Position numbers and translations under genes: made by a program
Shown: one piece after another, positions 1,034 through 28,370 of the stretch
Numbering within the stretch: the first letter of the stretch is position 1
Layout of the letters: each line of letters begins with the position of its first letter
The notes under the pieces: generated by a model
Databases searched by the model: none
Told to the model about the DNA's origin: nothing
What the model saw: only the letters and a program-made list of their open reading frames with translations
From: a virus
Taxonomy: Duplodnaviria > Heunggongvirae > Uroviricota > Caudoviricetes
Virus record (IMG/VR): IMGVR_UViG_2802429251_000007
Span: 1 to 30,664 of that record
Direction: 5' to 3' (one strand)
DNA: 30,664 nucleotides

Positions 1034-1123
1034 GTGCTGGTTCTGAAATGTGCGCTGGCTATTGCGGCTGTAATGGCAATTTATTGTCTTGCTGTTGTTC
1101 TTATGGATCGCCTTTCTGATTGA
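1034..1123 (+). CDS. Small hydrophobic peptide, 29 aa (MLVLKCALAIAAVMAIYCLAVVLMDRLSD).
   Basis: GTG start 5 nt after a GGGAGG Shine-Dalgarno. Single TM-like segment. Ends just before the hok promoter. Confidence 0.3.
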   Translation: MLVLKCALAIAAVMAIYCLAVVLMDRLSD

Positions 1124-1130
1124 TTTCATA

Positions 1131-1159
1131 TTGGCGAAGTGACGGGAGTTAAATAGAAT
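1131..1159 (+). promoter_or_regulatory. Candidate sigma70 promoter for the hok-like mRNA: -35 TTGGCG, 17-nt spacer, -10 TAGAAT.
   Basis: Hexamers read directly from the sequence. Predicted start about 1164 matches the start of the tac-like element GCGGGTGCTTGAGG. Confidence 0.35.
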
Positions 1160-1277
1160 TGCTGCGGGTGCTTGAGGCTATCTACCTCGGGCATGAACAC
1201 CAACGGCAGATAGAGAAAAGCCCCAGTTAACATTACGCGTCCTGCAAGACGCTTAACATTAATCTGAGGCCAATTTC

Positions 1278-1490
1278 ATGCTAGACACATGTAGGTTAGC
1301 CTCTTACGTGCCGAAAGGCAAGGAGAAGCAGGCTATGAAGCAGCAAAAGGCGATGTTAATCGCCCTGATCGTCATCTGTTTAACCGTCATAGTGACGGCA
1401 CTGGCAACGAGGAAAGACCTCTGCGAGGTACGAATCCGTACCGGCCAGACGGAGGTCGCTGTCTTCGTAGACTACGAATCTAGAGAGTAA
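1278..1490 (+). CDS. mok: Mok-like reading frame, 70 aa. It is an in-frame N-terminal extension of the hok-like toxin, as MokC is for HokC.
   Basis: MLDTCRLASYVPKGKEKQA then MKQQKAM... mirrors the MokC layout MLNTCRVPLTDRKVKEKRAMKQHKAM... Confidence 0.5.
   Translation: MLDTCRLASYVPKGKEKQAMKQQKAMLIALIVICLTVIVTALATRKDLCEVRIRTGQTEVAVFVDYESRE
1335..1490 (+). CDS. hok: Hok/Gef-family type I toxin, 51 aa.
   Basis: MKQQKAMLIALIVICLTVIVTALATRKDLCEVRIRTGQTEVAVFVDYESRE is close to Gef/HokC (MKQHKAMIVALIVICITAVVAALVTRKDLCEVHIRTGQTEVAVFTAYESE). Confidence 0.85.
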   Translation: MKQQKAMLIALIVICLTVIVTALATRKDLCEVRIRTGQTEVAVFVDYESRE

Positions 1491-1499
1491 TAGTGACCA

Positions 1500-1521
1500 G
1501 GCGGGAGATTACTCTCCCGCC
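1500..1521 (+). promoter_or_regulatory. Perfect 9-bp hairpin (GGCGGGAGA-TTAC-TCTCCCGCC) in the hok 3' UTR.
   Basis: Inverted repeat read directly. Lies 10 nt after the hok stop codon. Confidence 0.5.
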
Positions 1522-1561
1522 ACCTCTGATGTGTCAGGCATCCTCAACGCACCCGCACTTA

Positions 1562-1595
1562 ACCCGCTTCGGCGGGTTTTTGTTTTTATTTTCAA
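1562..1595 (+). terminator. Rho-independent terminator of the hok-like mRNA.
   Basis: CCCGC-TTCG-GCGGG stem-loop followed by TTTTTGTTTTTATTTT. Confidence 0.7.
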
Positions 1596-1708
1596 CGCAT
1601 TTGAAGTTTTGGACGGTGCCGGAATAGAATCAAAAATACTTAAGTAGCGCGCAGGGATAAGAGGGATGGTCCCCTGAAGGGGAGTGCGAATTATCCGGAA
1701 GGACTCTG

Positions 1709-1885
1709 ATGATGAACATCGAAGAACTGCGTAAAATTTTTAGTGAAAATGGCCTCTATGCTGTGCGCGTTGAGAATGGGAAAGTTGTCTACACAACGTT
1801 AATCCCTGATGATCATGTAATTTTATCTATCGAGGCATTCATTGAATACCTTGAAAGGCTCGGTTTCAAGGTGGTTCGCGAATGA
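1709..1885 (+). CDS. Hypothetical small phage protein, 58 aa (MMNIEELRKIFSENGLYAVRVENGK...).
   Basis: ATG 6 nt after a GGAAGGA Shine-Dalgarno. Below the ORF-track cutoff. No family recognised. Confidence 0.4.
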   Translation: MMNIEELRKIFSENGLYAVRVENGKVVYTTLIPDDHVILSIEAFIEYLERLGFKVVRE

Positions 1886-3385: not shown

Positions 3386-3411
3386 CTCAATCTGTTATCC
3401 GGGGCTATATT
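3382..3411 (+). promoter_or_regulatory. PR'-like late promoter: -35 TTGACT overlapping the Q stop, 18-nt spacer, -10 TATATT. Probable Q utilisation region.
   Basis: Hexamers read directly. Position after Q matches lambdoid PR'/qut. Confidence 0.45.
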
Positions 3412-3473
3412 CCTCACGCGCCAGCAAAATCTGGCGTCGGGATTGGCGTCCCGGATGTTTACGGAGCGATATG

Positions 3474-3495
3474 AGACGCGCCCGCGTCTTTTTTC
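3474..3495 (+). terminator. tR'-like rho-independent terminator. It would yield a short (about 75-nt) 6S-like late RNA unless Q acts.
   Basis: AGACGC-GCCC-GCGTCT stem-loop followed by TTTTTT. Confidence 0.6.
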
Positions 3496-3666
3496 ATATC
3501 GTTTGCACAGTCACATTCGCGATTTATGGCGGGCTGTGTGGGGGAGCCGAAAGGCTCGCCGGTTTCCGTACCCGGTTACGCCAACCCTGCACAGTTCGCC
3601 ACCAGTTCGATTGGCGTCGTCGGTGGCGATAATTTCCAAATGTACGGAGTTATCGTTATGACCACT

Positions 3667-3729: not shown

Positions 3730-4005
3730 GTGGCTTCTGTTTCTATCAGCTGTCCCTCCTGTTCAGCTACTGACGGGGTGGTGCGTAACGGCAAAAGCAC
3801 CGCCGGACATCAGCGCTATCTCTGCTCTCACTGCCGTAAAACATGGCAACTGCAGTTCACTTACACCGCTTCTCAACCCGGTACGCACCAGAAAATCATT
3901 GATATGGCCATGAATGGCGTTGGATGCCGGGCAACTGCCCGCATTATGGGCGTTGGCCTCAACACGATTTTACGTCACTTAAAAAACTCAGGCCGCAGTC
4001 GGTAA
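3730..4005 (+). CDS. insA: IS1 InsA, 91 aa.
   Basis: [43 protein letters not shown]... is the canonical InsA sequence. Confidence 0.95.
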
Positions 4006-4427
4006 CCTCGCGCATACAGCCGGGCAGTGACGTCATCGTCTGCGCGGAAATGGACGAACAGTGGGGCTATGTCGGGGCTAAATCGCGCCAGCGCTGGCTG
4101 TTTTACGCGTATGACAGTCTCCGGAAGACGGTTGTTGCGCACGTATTCGGTGAACGCACTATGGCGACGCTGGGGCGTCTTATGAGCCTGCTGTCACCCT
4201 TTGACGTGGTGATATGGATGACGGATGGCTGGCCGCTGTATGAATCCCGCCTGAAGGGAAAGCTGCACGTAATCAGCAAACGATATACGCAGCGAATTGA
4301 GCGGCATAACCTGAATCTGAGGCAGCACCTGGCACGGCTGGGACGGAAGTCGCTGTCGTTCTCAAAATCGGTGGAGCTGCATGACAAAGTCATCGGGCAT
4401 TATCTGAACATAAAACACTATCAATAA
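3924..4427 (+). CDS. insB: IS1 InsB frame, expressed as an InsAB' fusion by -1 frameshifting at A-AAA-AAC (3981-3987).
   Basis: ...[45 protein letters not shown]... is the canonical InsB sequence. AAAAAAC present at 3981-3987. Confidence 0.9.
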
Positions 4428-5354: not shown

Positions 5355-5430
<76 letters not shown>

Positions 5431-5433
5431 TAT

Positions 5434-5508
<75 letters not shown>

Positions 5509-27792: not shown

Positions 27793-28370
27793 TGGAATTC
27801 AGAATGAGTGAACAACCACAGACCATAAAAATTTATAATCTGCTGGCCGGAACTAATGAATTTATTGGTGAAGGTGATGCATACATTCCACCTCATACAG
27901 GTCTGCCAGCAAACAGTACCGATATTGCACCGCCAGATATTCCGGCTGGCTTCGTGGCTGTTTTCAACACTGATGAGGCATCGTGGCATCTCGTTGAAGA
28001 CCATCGGGGTAAAACCGTCTATGACGTGGCTTCCGGCGACGCGTTATTTATTTCTGAACTTGGCCCATTACCGGAAAATGTCACCTGGTTATCCCCGGAA
28101 GGGGAGTTTCAGAAGTGGAACGGTACATCTTGGGTGAAAGATGCAGAAGCAGAAAAACTGTTTCGGAGCCAGGAGGCGGAAGAAACAAAAAACAGCCTGA
28201 TGCAGGTAGCTAGCGAGCATATTGCGCCACTTCAGGATGCTGTAGATTTGGATATTGCGACGGAAGAAGAGGCATCGTTACTGGCTGCATGGAAGACATA
28301 TCGGGTATTGTTGAATCGTGTTGATACAACAGTAGCAGCGGATATTGAGTGGCCAGTCGCCCCACAATAA
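27792..28370 (+). CDS. tfa: Tail fibre assembly chaperone, lambda Tfa-like.
   Basis: [59 protein letters not shown]... is nearly collinear with lambda Tfa. Confidence 0.9.

What the first reader, a model, noticed from the sequence alone, without database searches (positions are those of the whole stretch)
1131..1595. Apparently intact hok/gef-type type I toxin locus with long-range tac-fbi complementarity
The 51-aa ORF is a clear Hok/Gef homolog, with an in-frame Mok-like upstream extension. Beyond the protein, the transcript architecture is conserved in three ways:
- A promoter (TTGGCG-17-TAGAAT) predicts a 5' end at about 1164.
- The sequence GCGGGTGCTTGAGG at 1164-1177 is almost exactly complementary to CCTCAACGCACCCGC at 1542-1556 near the 3' end. 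This is the fold-back inhibition (tac/fbi) pairing that keeps full-length hok mRNA inert.
- A perfect 9-bp hairpin (1500-1521) and an intrinsic terminator (1562-1595) follow.

Chromosomal hok loci in K-12 are mostly wrecked by IS elements. An intact copy in a prophage nin-like region could act as an addiction or abortive-infection module. The cognate Sok-like antisense RNA should be encoded on the minus strand around 1230-1310, overlapping the mok start. I could not pin down its promoter by eye.
Basis: seen in the sequence. Interest (0 to 1): 0.55.

Follow-up and report, generated by a model that had tools for sequence, protein, structure and literature searches.

The report
Intact prophage hok/sok toxin-antitoxin locus

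Summary
Window 1131-1595 holds a full hok/mok/sok type I toxin-antitoxin locus.

- **Toxin:** Hok is 51 aa (Pfam HOK_GEF, E = 4e-22). It is 94% identical to HokW, the experimentally toxic protein of Stx2 prophage Sp5.
- **mok:** a 70-codon in-frame mok ORF is present.
- **tac/fbi pairing:** the 5' tac (1164-1177) pairs with the 3' fbi (1542-1556) in the minimum-energy fold. 31 homologues from six genera keep this pairing through compensatory changes.
- **Alternative folds:** the canonical alternative folds are also present.
  - the nascent metastable hairpin;
  - the tac/ucb stem;
  - the mok-SD/dcb stem with the Sok-target hairpin;
  - the 3' protective hairpin.
- **Sok:** I placed the missing Sok by homology to the annotated 71-nt sokW.
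  - It lies on the minus strand, 1286 to 1216.
  - Its -10 is TAACCT (1298-1293), the element mutated in the published sokW promoter-less construct.
  - Its -35 is TTGCCT (1321-1316).

Related sequences occur in 4726 of 5426 complete E. coli genomes, where the listed full-length matches are annotated hokD. An identical sequence is already in a public assembly. The only deviations are minor lineage polymorphisms: A1184, and one mismatch in a long-range helix. Expression and toxicity remain untested here.

Verdict: already known, low interest.

The parts
1131..1159 (+). hok/mok mRNA promoter: -35 TTGGCG (1131-1136), 17-nt spacer, -10 TAGAAT (1154-1159)
   Evidence: Found by the consensus scan. 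The -10 is conserved in five of six close relatives (alignment A1). The transcription start was not mapped.
1164..1590 (+). Full-length hok/mok mRNA, about 425 nt (5' end at 1164-1166, 3' end in the T run after the terminator)
   Evidence: MFE -178.9 kcal/mol, z = -8.3, with the 5' and 3' ends paired. It aligns end to end with hokW of Sp5.
1164..1177 (+). tac (translational activator element), GCGGGUGCUUGAGG
   Evidence: Pairs with fbi in the full-length fold, with 1185-1194 in the nascent 32-nt fold, and with ucb in the 63-nt fold. Nearly invariant in 31 homologues.
1168..1194 (+). Nascent-transcript metastable hairpin (tac paired with the stretch just downstream)
   Evidence: Fold of 1164-1195: -14.1 kcal/mol, 86% of the ensemble. 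RNAalifold pairs columns 11-15 with 21-25, with G-C/G-U/A-U variation. A1184 (G in the 30 other aligned loci) removes the loop-closing pair.
1216..1226 (+). ucb (upstream complementary box; anti-SD of mok), AAAAGCCCCAG
   Evidence: Pairs with the mok SD in the full-length fold and with tac in the 63-nt and 142-nt folds. The tac/ucb pairs hold in nearly every cell of the 31 loci (one cell unpaired).
1216..1286 (-). Sok-like antisense RNA, 71 nt (5' G at 1286; 3' UUUU at 1219-1216)
   Evidence: Positional homologue of the annotated sokW misc_RNA of AP000422. It folds into a 15-nt single-stranded 5' tail, a long hairpin and a U tail: -28.7 kcal/mol, z = -5.1. Its ends are inferred, not mapped.
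1293..1321 (-). Sok promoter: -35 TTGCCT (1321-1316), 17-nt spacer, -10 TAACCT (1298-1293)
   Evidence: Sequence read directly. The same -10 (TAGGTTA on the + strand) is replaced by CCGGCTC in primer YO-421 of the sokW promoter-less construct, which unleashed HokW toxicity (PMC8621323). AGGCAA is invariant in 31 loci. The consensus scan does not detect this promoter.
1265..1268 (+). mok Shine-Dalgarno sequence, GAGG
   Evidence: Lies 9 nt upstream of ATG 1278 and is invariant in 31 loci. Paired with ucb in the closed form and with dcb in the open form.
1278..1490 (+). mok reading frame (70 codons), in frame with hok and sharing its stop
   Evidence: ORF list. Same length and layout as the annotated mokW.
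1266..1303 (+). Sok-target (sokT) stem-loop of the open form: mok SD (1265-1269) paired with dcb GCCUC (1299-1303), with the mok AUG in the upper stem
   Evidence: Fold of 1260-1305: -13.6 kcal/mol. The same hairpin appears in the 142-nt fold and in the Rfam RF01794 consensus (108.6 bits). The SD/dcb pairs are invariant in 31 loci.
1320..1325 (+). hok Shine-Dalgarno sequence, AAGGAG
   Evidence: Lies 9 nt upstream of ATG 1335. Conserved in the alignment.
1335..1490 (+). hok toxin gene, 51 aa
   Evidence: Pfam HOK_GEF, E = 4e-22. 94% identical to HokW and 90% to K-12-type HokD.
1500..1521 (+). GC-rich 9-bp hairpin; probable 3' end protector of the processed (truncated) mRNA
   Evidence: 100% complementary arms. 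-18.8 kcal/mol, z = -6.7. Compensatory changes in homologues at columns 348:366, 350:364 and 351:363. The role is assigned by analogy with R1 hok (PMC9841398).
1529..1541 (+). 3' partner of the mok start / Sok-target region (1278-1290) in the closed full-length fold
   Evidence: 13-nt arms, 85% complementary, and paired in the MFE. Cognate 5'/3' segments pair better than cross-clade ones: Photorhabdus -14.6 against -9.2 kcal/mol; hokD type -12.2 against -10.6.
1542..1556 (+). fbi (fold-back inhibitory element), CCUCAACGCACCCGC
   Evidence: Pairs with tac. Compensatory U-A to C-G in 11 sequences and G-C to A-U at two further positions.
1561..1590 (+). Intrinsic terminator of the hok mRNA (7-bp stem, UUCG loop, T run)
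   Evidence: Terminator scan. Fold -11.8 kcal/mol, z = -3.9.

Best explanation
The region is a complete hok/mok/sok type I toxin-antitoxin module of the hokD/hokW subgroup. It sits in the nin region (between the replication genes and the Q-like antiterminator) of a lambdoid Escherichia-type prophage.

Mechanism, shown for the family and inferred for this copy:
1. A moderately strong promoter makes a stable hok mRNA of about 425 nt.
2. While the transcript is nascent, tac is locked in a local hairpin.
3. Once the transcript is complete, tac pairs with fbi at the 3' end. In this closed form ucb covers the mok Shine-Dalgarno sequence, and 1529-1541 covers the mok start and Sok target. The full-length RNA is then neither translated nor bound by Sok.
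4. Slow 3' exonucleolytic trimming, back to the 1500-1521 hairpin, removes fbi.
5. tac then switches to ucb. The mok SD pairs with dcb and the Sok-target hairpin forms. The RNA can now be translated (mok first, then hok by coupling), unless the unstable 71-nt Sok RNA (minus strand, 1286 to 1216) binds it and the duplex is cut by RNase III.
6. When Sok synthesis stops, Hok (51 aa) inserts into the inner membrane and collapses it. Sok synthesis could stop through loss of the element, a transcription shut-off, or prophage induction.

The most likely physiological role is the one shown for the near-identical hokW-sokW locus: helping host lysis and phage release after induction. Prophage stabilisation or exclusion of other phages are alternatives.
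For: - **Toxin:** Pfam HOK_GEF, E = 4e-22. 48 of 51 residues are identical to HokW. HokW stops growth when induced and is neutralised by sokW expressed from its own promoter (PMC8621323).
- **Whole locus:** it aligns over its full length with hokW-sokW and with E. coli loci annotated hokD.
- **Leader:** Rfam RF01794 matches 1166-1340 at 108.6 bits against a gathering score of 59.
- **Full-length fold:** closes tac on fbi and ucb on the mok SD.
- **Shorter folds:** partial transcripts of 32, 63 and 142 nt give, in order, the metastable hairpin, the tac/ucb stem and the open form with the SD/dcb-sokT hairpin. These are the states described for R1 hok (PMC9841398).
- **Covariation:** tac/fbi is kept in 31 loci from Escherichia, Shigella, Kluyvera, Citrobacter, Pantoea and Photorhabdus, with compensatory changes at three pairs.
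- **Sok:** its -10 and -35 are conserved and the RNA folds like a Sok RNA.
- **Strand context:** the neighbouring genes are on the same strand (Rem-like ORF, DUF1367, YbcO, DUF1133/Q-like).
Against: - There are no expression or toxicity data for this copy.
- The Sok promoter matches the sigma-70 consensus at only 7 of 12 positions, and the scan did not pick it up.
- A1184, where the 30 other aligned loci have G, removes one pair from both the metastable hairpin and the extended tac stem. The change also occurs in four other assemblies, so it is a lineage polymorphism and not a sequencing error.
- One U·U mismatch lies in the invariant long-range helix between 1301-1307 and the hok stop region (columns 144:337).
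- The MFE fold of the whole truncated RNA (1164-1527) did not reproduce the open form.
- NCBIfam Hok models score below their curated cut-offs (52 bits against 73).
- The physiological role is taken from one study of a locus at a different place in its prophage.
Confidence: 0.87

Rival explanations
1. The locus is a decayed, non-functional remnant, like most chromosomal hok loci of E. coli K-12. The ORF survives, but regulation or expression is broken.
For: - Decayed copies do exist in related genomes. L010 has relBE in place of the whole leader, and L009 has a mutated tac, hok SD and Sok -35.
- This copy has A1184 and one U·U mismatch in conserved helices.
Against: - All named elements are present and in register with the functional hokW-sokW: promoter, tac, ucb, mok SD and ORF, dcb, Sok promoter, hok SD and ORF, 3' hairpin, fbi and terminator.
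- No IS element, frameshift or stop interrupts the locus.
- The two deviations each cost a single pair, and the stepwise folds still form.
- The same allele is kept in several independent assemblies.
Confidence: 0.08
2. The module is functional but serves mainly as a prophage addiction or abortive-infection device. On this view it kills cells that lose the prophage, or cells whose transcription is shut off by a superinfecting lytic phage, and does not aid the prophage's own lysis.
For: - R1 hok/sok stabilises plasmids by post-segregational killing.
- On a high-copy plasmid it reduces T4 plating by 42% and plaque size by about 85% (Takada et al. 2021 citing their reference 27).
- The RNA architecture found here (stable toxin mRNA, antisense RNA described as unstable for the family) is the one that gives killing after transcription stops.
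Against: - The only experiment on a prophage copy of this subgroup found RecA-dependent loss of sokW, HokW production on induction, and twofold more released phage with the locus than without.
- Single-copy chromosomal hok loci have not been shown to exclude phages.
- The roles are not mutually exclusive.
Confidence: 0.3
3. The 5'-3' complementarity is a chance match, and the transcript is controlled only by the antisense RNA.
For: One of 1000 shuffled sequences gave an equally stable duplex with the 14-mer.
Against: - The pairing is kept in all 31 homologues.
- Compensatory double changes occur: U-A to C-G in 11 sequences, and G-C to A-U at tac positions 13 and 14, with G·U intermediates.
- The pairing is part of the MFE structure.
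- It is an experimentally established feature of the family (PMC9841398).
Confidence: 0.01

Closest known systems
hokW-mokW-sokW of Stx2 prophage Sp5 / VT2-Sakai / 933W (Takada et al. 2021, PMC8621323; annotated in AP000422)
   Same: - Hok is 94% identical (48 of 51 residues).
- The mok frame has the same 70 codons.
- In the first 50 nt of the leader (tac and the metastable hairpin), the window differs from the published hokW sequence only at position 1184.
- The Sok -10 and -35, Sok hairpin, fbi and 3' hairpin architecture are the same.
- Both lie in lambdoid prophages.
   Different: - Differences cluster in the 16-nt Sok 5' tail target (1271-1286), so the two Sok RNAs may not cross-react.
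- Here fbi is followed by a canonical terminator hairpin that hokW lacks at that position.
- hokW lies among genes unlike those flanking this copy, next to a very long opposite-strand ORF. This copy lies in the nin region, upstream of the Q-like gene.
hokD (relF) as annotated by PGAP in E. coli prophages (Qin-type and related); also phages HannyBb and mEp460
   Same: - DNA identity is 94-95% over all of 1100-1650.
- The neighbourhood is the same in one complete genome: hokD, then DUF1367, DUF1364/YbcO and DUF1133.
- Related sequences occur in 4726 of 5426 complete E. coli genomes.
   Different: - The K-12-type allele (for example L010) has relB-relE fused upstream. It lacks the promoter, tac, ucb, mok and Sok.
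- The window copy keeps them all.
- The Hok C-terminus differs (VDYESRE here, TAYEPEE in HokD).
hok/mok/sok (parB) of plasmid R1, the reference system for the mechanism (reviewed in Le Rhun et al. 2022, PMC9841398)
   Same: The set of regulatory elements and conformations is the same: tac/fbi closure, ucb on the mok SD, tac/ucb and SD/dcb in the processed form, the metastable 5' hairpin, the 3' protective hairpin, and a cis-antisense Sok with its promoter next to dcb.
   Different: - The proteins are only distantly similar: HokW and R1 Hok are 44% identical according to PMC8621323.
- In the hokD/W lineage the hairpin that underlies Sok carries an insertion of about 18-20 nt relative to the hokC-type and Photorhabdus loci.
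- The context is a prophage, not a plasmid.
hokC/gef-type and Photorhabdus, Pantoea and Citrobacter chromosomal hok loci (L013-L041)
   Same: The architecture is shared. These loci supply the covariation that supports tac/fbi and the other helices.
   Different: - Hok identity is 65-78%.
- The leader is shorter.
- fbi lacks the bulged C in Photorhabdus.

Membership tests
hok/sok (Hok/Gef) type I toxin-antitoxin family | Small (about 50 aa) hydrophobic toxin with the Hok/Gef domain | tested here: met
   - Pfam PF01848: 77.9 bits against a cut-off of 22.
- The TRKDLCEV motif and both Cys residues align with five other Hok proteins.
- NCBIfam Hok subfamily model: 52 bits, below its cut-off of 73.
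hok/sok (Hok/Gef) type I toxin-antitoxin family | Overlapping upstream reading frame (mok) with its own SD, through which hok is translated | tested here: met
   - ATG 1278, with GAGG 9 nt upstream.
- 70 codons, in frame, sharing the hok stop.
- Same layout as the annotated mokW.
- Translational coupling itself was not tested.
hok/sok (Hok/Gef) type I toxin-antitoxin family | Cis-encoded antisense RNA (Sok) of about 65-70 nt, complementary to the mok translation initiation region and made from its own promoter inside the leader | tested here: met
   - Positional homologue of the annotated 71-nt sokW.
- The -10 TAACCT is identical to the element mutated in the sokW promoter-less construct.
- The fold is a single-stranded 5' tail, a hairpin and a U tail; z = -5.1.
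- This is sequence-level evidence only; see the row on expression.
hok/sok (Hok/Gef) type I toxin-antitoxin family | Long-range tac/fbi pairing of the mRNA 5' and 3' ends | tested here: met
   - Present in the MFE.
- -26.9 kcal/mol; 1 of 1000 shuffles reaches it.
- Compensatory changes in 31 loci.
hok/sok (Hok/Gef) type I toxin-antitoxin family | Alternative pairings of tac (metastable 5' hairpin; tac/ucb stem) and of the mok SD (with ucb when closed, with dcb when open) | tested here: met
   - Stepwise folds of 32, 63 and 142 nt.
- Closed form in the full-length fold.
- Rfam RF01794 structure match at 108.6 bits.
- The tac/ucb and SD/dcb pairs hold in nearly every cell of 31 loci, so they neither support nor contradict by covariation.
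- The MFE of the whole truncated RNA did not give the open form.
hok/sok (Hok/Gef) type I toxin-antitoxin family | Stable stem-loop upstream of fbi that becomes the 3' end of the processed mRNA | tested here: met
   - Hairpin 1500-1521: -18.8 kcal/mol, z = -6.7.
- It covaries in homologues.
- Processing itself was not tested.
hok/sok (Hok/Gef) type I toxin-antitoxin family | Toxicity of Hok and its neutralisation by Sok; Sok RNA actually expressed | not testable with these tools
   Shown for hokW-sokW, whose Hok is 94% identical (PMC8621323). Not shown for this copy.
hokD/hokW subgroup (prophage-borne) | At least about 90% nucleotide identity across the whole transcript, and residence in a lambdoid prophage | tested here: met
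   - 94.7% to E. coli hokD loci and 94.4% to phage HannyBb over 551 nt.
- Full-length alignment with Sp5 hokW.
- Flanked by a Rem-like ORF, DUF1367, YbcO and DUF1133/Q-like genes.

The most novel reading that the evidence does not exclude
Among hokD/hokW-type copies that are otherwise about 90-95% identical, substitutions pile up in the 16 nt that form the single-stranded 5' tail of Sok and its target (1271-1286). This includes copies living together in one genome. In that stretch 11 of 18 alignment columns vary, against 3 of 37 in the Sok hairpin.

The most novel reading the evidence allows has two parts. Both are speculation resting on sequence patterns only.
1. This stretch is under diversifying selection, which keeps the Sok RNAs of co-resident prophages orthogonal, so each prophage polices only its own toxin.
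2. In the nin-region copies, early rightward phage transcription on the same strand could run into the Sok promoter at induction and time Hok release.
Probability: 0.25. Interest if true: 0.35.

Novelty: already known. Interest (0 to 1): 0.1.

Why it matters
It matters little beyond correct annotation.

- **Annotation.** The window carries a complete type I toxin-antitoxin module. Gene callers reduce it to a 51-aa or 70-aa ORF, and Rfam labels it 'sok' on the wrong strand. The report gives coordinates for all RNA elements, including the real Sok gene and its promoter.
- **Biology.** The copy adds one more allele to a family present in most E. coli genomes. If it is functional, it could affect lysis timing or the stability of this prophage, as shown for hokW-sokW.
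- **Possible follow-up.** The clustering of variation in the Sok recognition tail is a small lead on antisense specificity among co-resident prophages.

Tried and rejected
1. **Promoter and terminator scan on the minus strand**. It found neither the Sok promoter nor a Sok terminator. The promoter matches only 7 of 12 consensus positions, and the terminator stem is long and interrupted. Both were placed by homology instead.
2. **MFE fold of the whole truncated mRNA, 1164-1527**. It did not give the textbook open form. Shorter 5' segments did, so I treat the whole-molecule result as the usual unreliability of single-sequence folds of about 360 nt, not as evidence against the model.
3. **Register of the second half of tac/fbi.** The MAFFT alignment A2 puts it out of register for loci without the bulged C. 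Column-based counts therefore cover only columns 3-8 with 403-408. The rest was checked per sequence with duplex folding.
4. **Second long-range helix** (mok start with 1529-1541). The same misalignment applies. A cognate against cross-clade duplex comparison gave moderate support only.
5. **NCBIfam.** The Hok models score below their cut-offs, so membership rests on Pfam and on DNA homology.
6. **Source organism.** The window is identical over 1131-1600 to contig PTRX01000003.1 of GCA_002966045.1.
7. **Hok relatives in Acinetobacter and Xanthomonas** (L016, L017). I rejected this as real spread. The contigs are 275 and 431 bp long and are near-identical to E. coli, so contamination is the likelier explanation.
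Full report
**What is in the sequence**

- **ORFs.** Window 1131-1595 contains a 51-codon ORF (1335-1490). Its product matches Pfam HOK_GEF at 77.9 bits, E = 4e-22. A 70-codon ORF from ATG 1278 is in frame with it and ends at the same stop.
- **Promoter and terminator.** It also finds the terminator: stem 1561-1578 followed by a T run.
- **Complementary elements.**
  - The arms 1500-1508 and 1513-1521 are perfectly complementary.
  - The ungapped repeat finder returns the exact 9-nt core of the long-range match, 1163-1171 with 1549-1557.
  - With one bulged C, the match extends to all of 1164-1177 against 1542-1556.
- **Strength of the pairing.** The duplex energy is -26.9 kcal/mol. Only 1 of 1000 dinucleotide shuffles of the rest of the transcript reaches that.
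- **Full-length fold.** Folding 1164-1590 as RNA gives -178.9 kcal/mol, z = -8.3. In the minimum-energy structure the two ends are paired.

**What it is**

- **RNA family.** Rfam RF01794 matches 1166-1340 at 108.6 bits, against a gathering score of 59.
- **E. coli genomes.** The 551 bases around the locus match 4726 of 5426 complete E. coli genomes, with a median of two places per genome. The best full-length matches are 94.7% identical, and all 20 listed are annotated as type I toxin HokD.
- **Phage records.** The best matches are annotated MokW, HokD or 'gef phage maintenance protein'.
- **Closest studied relative.** This is hokW-sokW of Stx2 prophage Sp5.
  - Hok here is 48 of 51 residues identical to HokW.
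  - The two loci align over their whole length.
  - The 50-nt hokW-derived part of a published primer, which starts at the tac element, differs from the window at one base, position 1184.
- **Experiments on hokW-sokW.** Takada et al. 2021 (PMC8621323) showed the following.
  - HokW arrests growth.
  - sokW expressed from its own promoter neutralises it.
  - The effect partly needs RNase III and Hfq.
  - On mitomycin C induction, sokW disappears in a RecA-dependent way and HokW is made.
  - The locus doubles the number of released phages.
- **Source.** The window is identical across 1131-1600 to a contig of public assembly GCA_002966045.1. The same Hok protein is encoded in at least seven further contigs, and four of the five read are 98% identical over the locus.
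- **Neighbours.** All are on the same strand: a Rem-like 58-aa ORF, then DUF1367, YbcO and DUF1133/Q-like genes. One complete E. coli genome has the same arrangement.

**The antisense RNA**

- **Placement.** The VT2-Sakai record annotates sokW as a 71-nt minus-strand RNA. Carried through the alignment, this gives window 1286 (5' end) to 1216 (3' end).
- **Promoter.** Seven bases upstream of position 1286 lies TAACCT (1298-1293). After a 17-nt spacer comes TTGCCT (1321-1316).
- **Experimental link.** The same -10 (TAGGTTA on the + strand) is what primer YO-421 replaces in the sokW promoter-less construct. AGGCAA is invariant in all 31 aligned loci.
- **Why it was missed.** The promoter matches the consensus at only 7 of 12 positions, so the scan did not report it.
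- **Fold.** The predicted RNA has a 15-nt single-stranded 5' tail, a long interrupted hairpin and a U tail: -28.7 kcal/mol, z = -5.1. I recall the same layout for R1 Sok; that comparison was not checked here.
- **Strand of the Rfam hit.** The 'sok' hit lies on the + strand and ends at the hok AUG. The model therefore describes the hok mRNA leader, not the antisense RNA.

**How it works**

The canonical model for the family, summarised in Le Rhun et al. 2022 (PMC9841398), has four states.

1. A nascent metastable hairpin that sequesters tac.
2. A closed full-length form, held by tac/fbi, in which ucb covers the mok SD.
3. Slow 3' trimming, back to a protective hairpin.
4. [quoted passage not shown] This form is translatable and is also the form that Sok binds, after which RNase III cuts the duplex.

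All four can be read in this copy.

- The first 32 nt fold into the metastable hairpin (-14.1 kcal/mol).
- The first 63 nt fold into the tac/ucb stem (-21.6 kcal/mol).
- The first 142 nt fold into the three-hairpin open form, which is also the Rfam consensus (-44.6 kcal/mol).
- The full-length RNA closes tac on fbi and ucb on the mok SD.
- In the full-length fold, the mok start and Sok-target stretch (1278-1290) also pairs with 1529-1541, immediately upstream of fbi. This would explain why Sok cannot bind the full-length RNA.

**Comparative support**

I collected 44 related loci from species-representative genomes and aligned 31 full transcripts from six genera.

- **tac/fbi.** RNAalifold recovers the tac/fbi helix.
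  - At the one variable pair in the aligned half, 11 sequences have C-G where 18 have U-A.
  - Per-sequence duplex folding shows the whole helix is kept everywhere.
  - Further compensatory changes are G-C to A-U at tac position 14 in Photorhabdus and at position 13 in Citrobacter, with G·U intermediates.
- **3' hairpin.** It also covaries.
- **tac/ucb and SD/dcb.** The pairs hold in nearly every cell of the 31 loci. That is expected for sequences with several partners. It neither supports nor contradicts the structure.
- **Second long-range helix.** Support is moderate. Cognate segments pair better than cross-clade ones: Photorhabdus -14.6 against -9.2 kcal/mol; hokD type -12.2 against -10.6.

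**Is it intact?**

Compared with the functional hokW-sokW, no element is missing, interrupted or out of register. Decayed relatives exist for contrast.

- A K-12-type hokD (L010) has relB-relE in place of everything upstream of the hok SD.
- Another copy (L009) has a mutated tac and a mutated Sok -35.

Two small deviations are worth recording.

- **A1184.** The 30 other aligned loci have G here. The change removes the loop-closing pair of the metastable hairpin and one pair of the extended tac stem. Four other assemblies share it, so it is a real allele.
- **One U·U mismatch.** The helix between 1301-1307 and the hok stop region carries it.

Neither prevents the predicted folds. Intactness, expression and toxicity remain inferences from sequence.

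**Role**

Three roles are on record for the family.

- Post-segregational killing.
- Partial exclusion of T4 when the R1 locus is on a high-copy plasmid.
- For the prophage copy hokW-sokW, help with lysis and phage release on induction.

I rank the last as most likely for this copy because of the near identity. However, hokW lies among different genes in its prophage, and the roles are not exclusive.

**Novelty**

None of substance. The family, its RNA mechanism, the prophage subgroup and even this exact sequence are already public. What this analysis adds is a full coordinate map, including Sok and its promoter.

One minor lead came up. Within the hokD/W subgroup, variation is concentrated in the Sok 5' tail target (1271-1286). 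There 11 of 18 columns vary, against 3 of 37 in the Sok hairpin. Co-resident copies in one genome differ there too. This would fit selection for non-cross-reacting antisense RNAs.

Noticed in passing
window 1166-1340 (+): The Rfam RF01794 'sok antitoxin' match lies on the hok mRNA sense strand and ends at the hok AUG. The model describes the hok mRNA leader in its open form. Annotation taken from it would put 'sok' on the wrong strand, because the real Sok is on the minus strand, 1286 to 1216.
   Followed up: partly
window 1034-1123 (+): An unannotated small hydrophobic ORF lies just upstream of the hok promoter. It has a GTG start 5 nt after GGGAGG and encodes 29 aa, MLVLKCALAIAAVMAIYCLAVVLMDRLSD. 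It has no Pfam or NCBIfam hit. The surrounding 356 bp are conserved in about 2085 E. coli genomes; among the eight best matches listed, the stretch is annotated as 'none' or 'hypothetical protein'.
   Followed up: partly
window 1271-1286: The target of the Sok 5' tail is the most variable segment of the leader among hokD/hokW-type loci that are otherwise about 90-95% identical. Copies co-resident in one genome differ there too (L002 and L004 of strain ECMA0423). This may be diversification of antisense specificity.
   Followed up: partly
window 1184: A where the 30 other aligned hok loci have G. The change removes one base pair from both the metastable 5' hairpin and the extended tac stem. Four other assemblies that encode the same Hok protein share it.
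   Followed up: yes
window 1488-1496: hok ends in three consecutive in-frame stop codons, TAA TAG TGA. This stretch also carries a 2-nt insertion and one substitution relative to most relatives, within the conserved helix that pairs with 1301-1307.
   Followed up: partly
window 1601-1630 and 1709-1885 (+): A second promoter-like site, TTGAAG-18-TAGAAT, lies directly after the hok terminator. It precedes a 58-aa ORF recorded as Pfam Rem (PF27490) in the public contig.
   Followed up: no
window 3405-3606, then about 3730-4427: Rfam finds c4-a1b1, isrK and C4 antisense RNA in a row downstream of the Q-like gene. An IS1 copy follows, and after it an ORF6N (antirepressor-like) gene. The IS1 appears to separate the C4-type regulatory RNAs from the gene they would normally control.
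   Followed up: no
window 5355-5508 and 28135-28333: tRNA-Thr(tgt) and tRNA-Gly(tcc) lie in tandem downstream of the Q region. An IS009 RNA family match (189 bits) lies in the late region of the prophage.
   Followed up: no
L016 and L017; H41; H36: Three database oddities.
- hok fragments 91-98% identical to this one sit on contigs of 275 and 431 bp labelled Acinetobacter idrijaensis and Xanthomonas pisi. This is probably contamination.
- A 4.9-Mb E. coli chromosome is filed in the plasmid collection.
- An Actinobacillus phage record carries a 92.8% identical hok locus.
   Followed up: no
L009 and L010: Decayed relatives that can serve as controls. L010 is the K-12-type hokD, with relB-relE replacing the whole leader. 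L009 keeps the leader but has a mutated tac, hok SD and Sok -35.
   Followed up: yes
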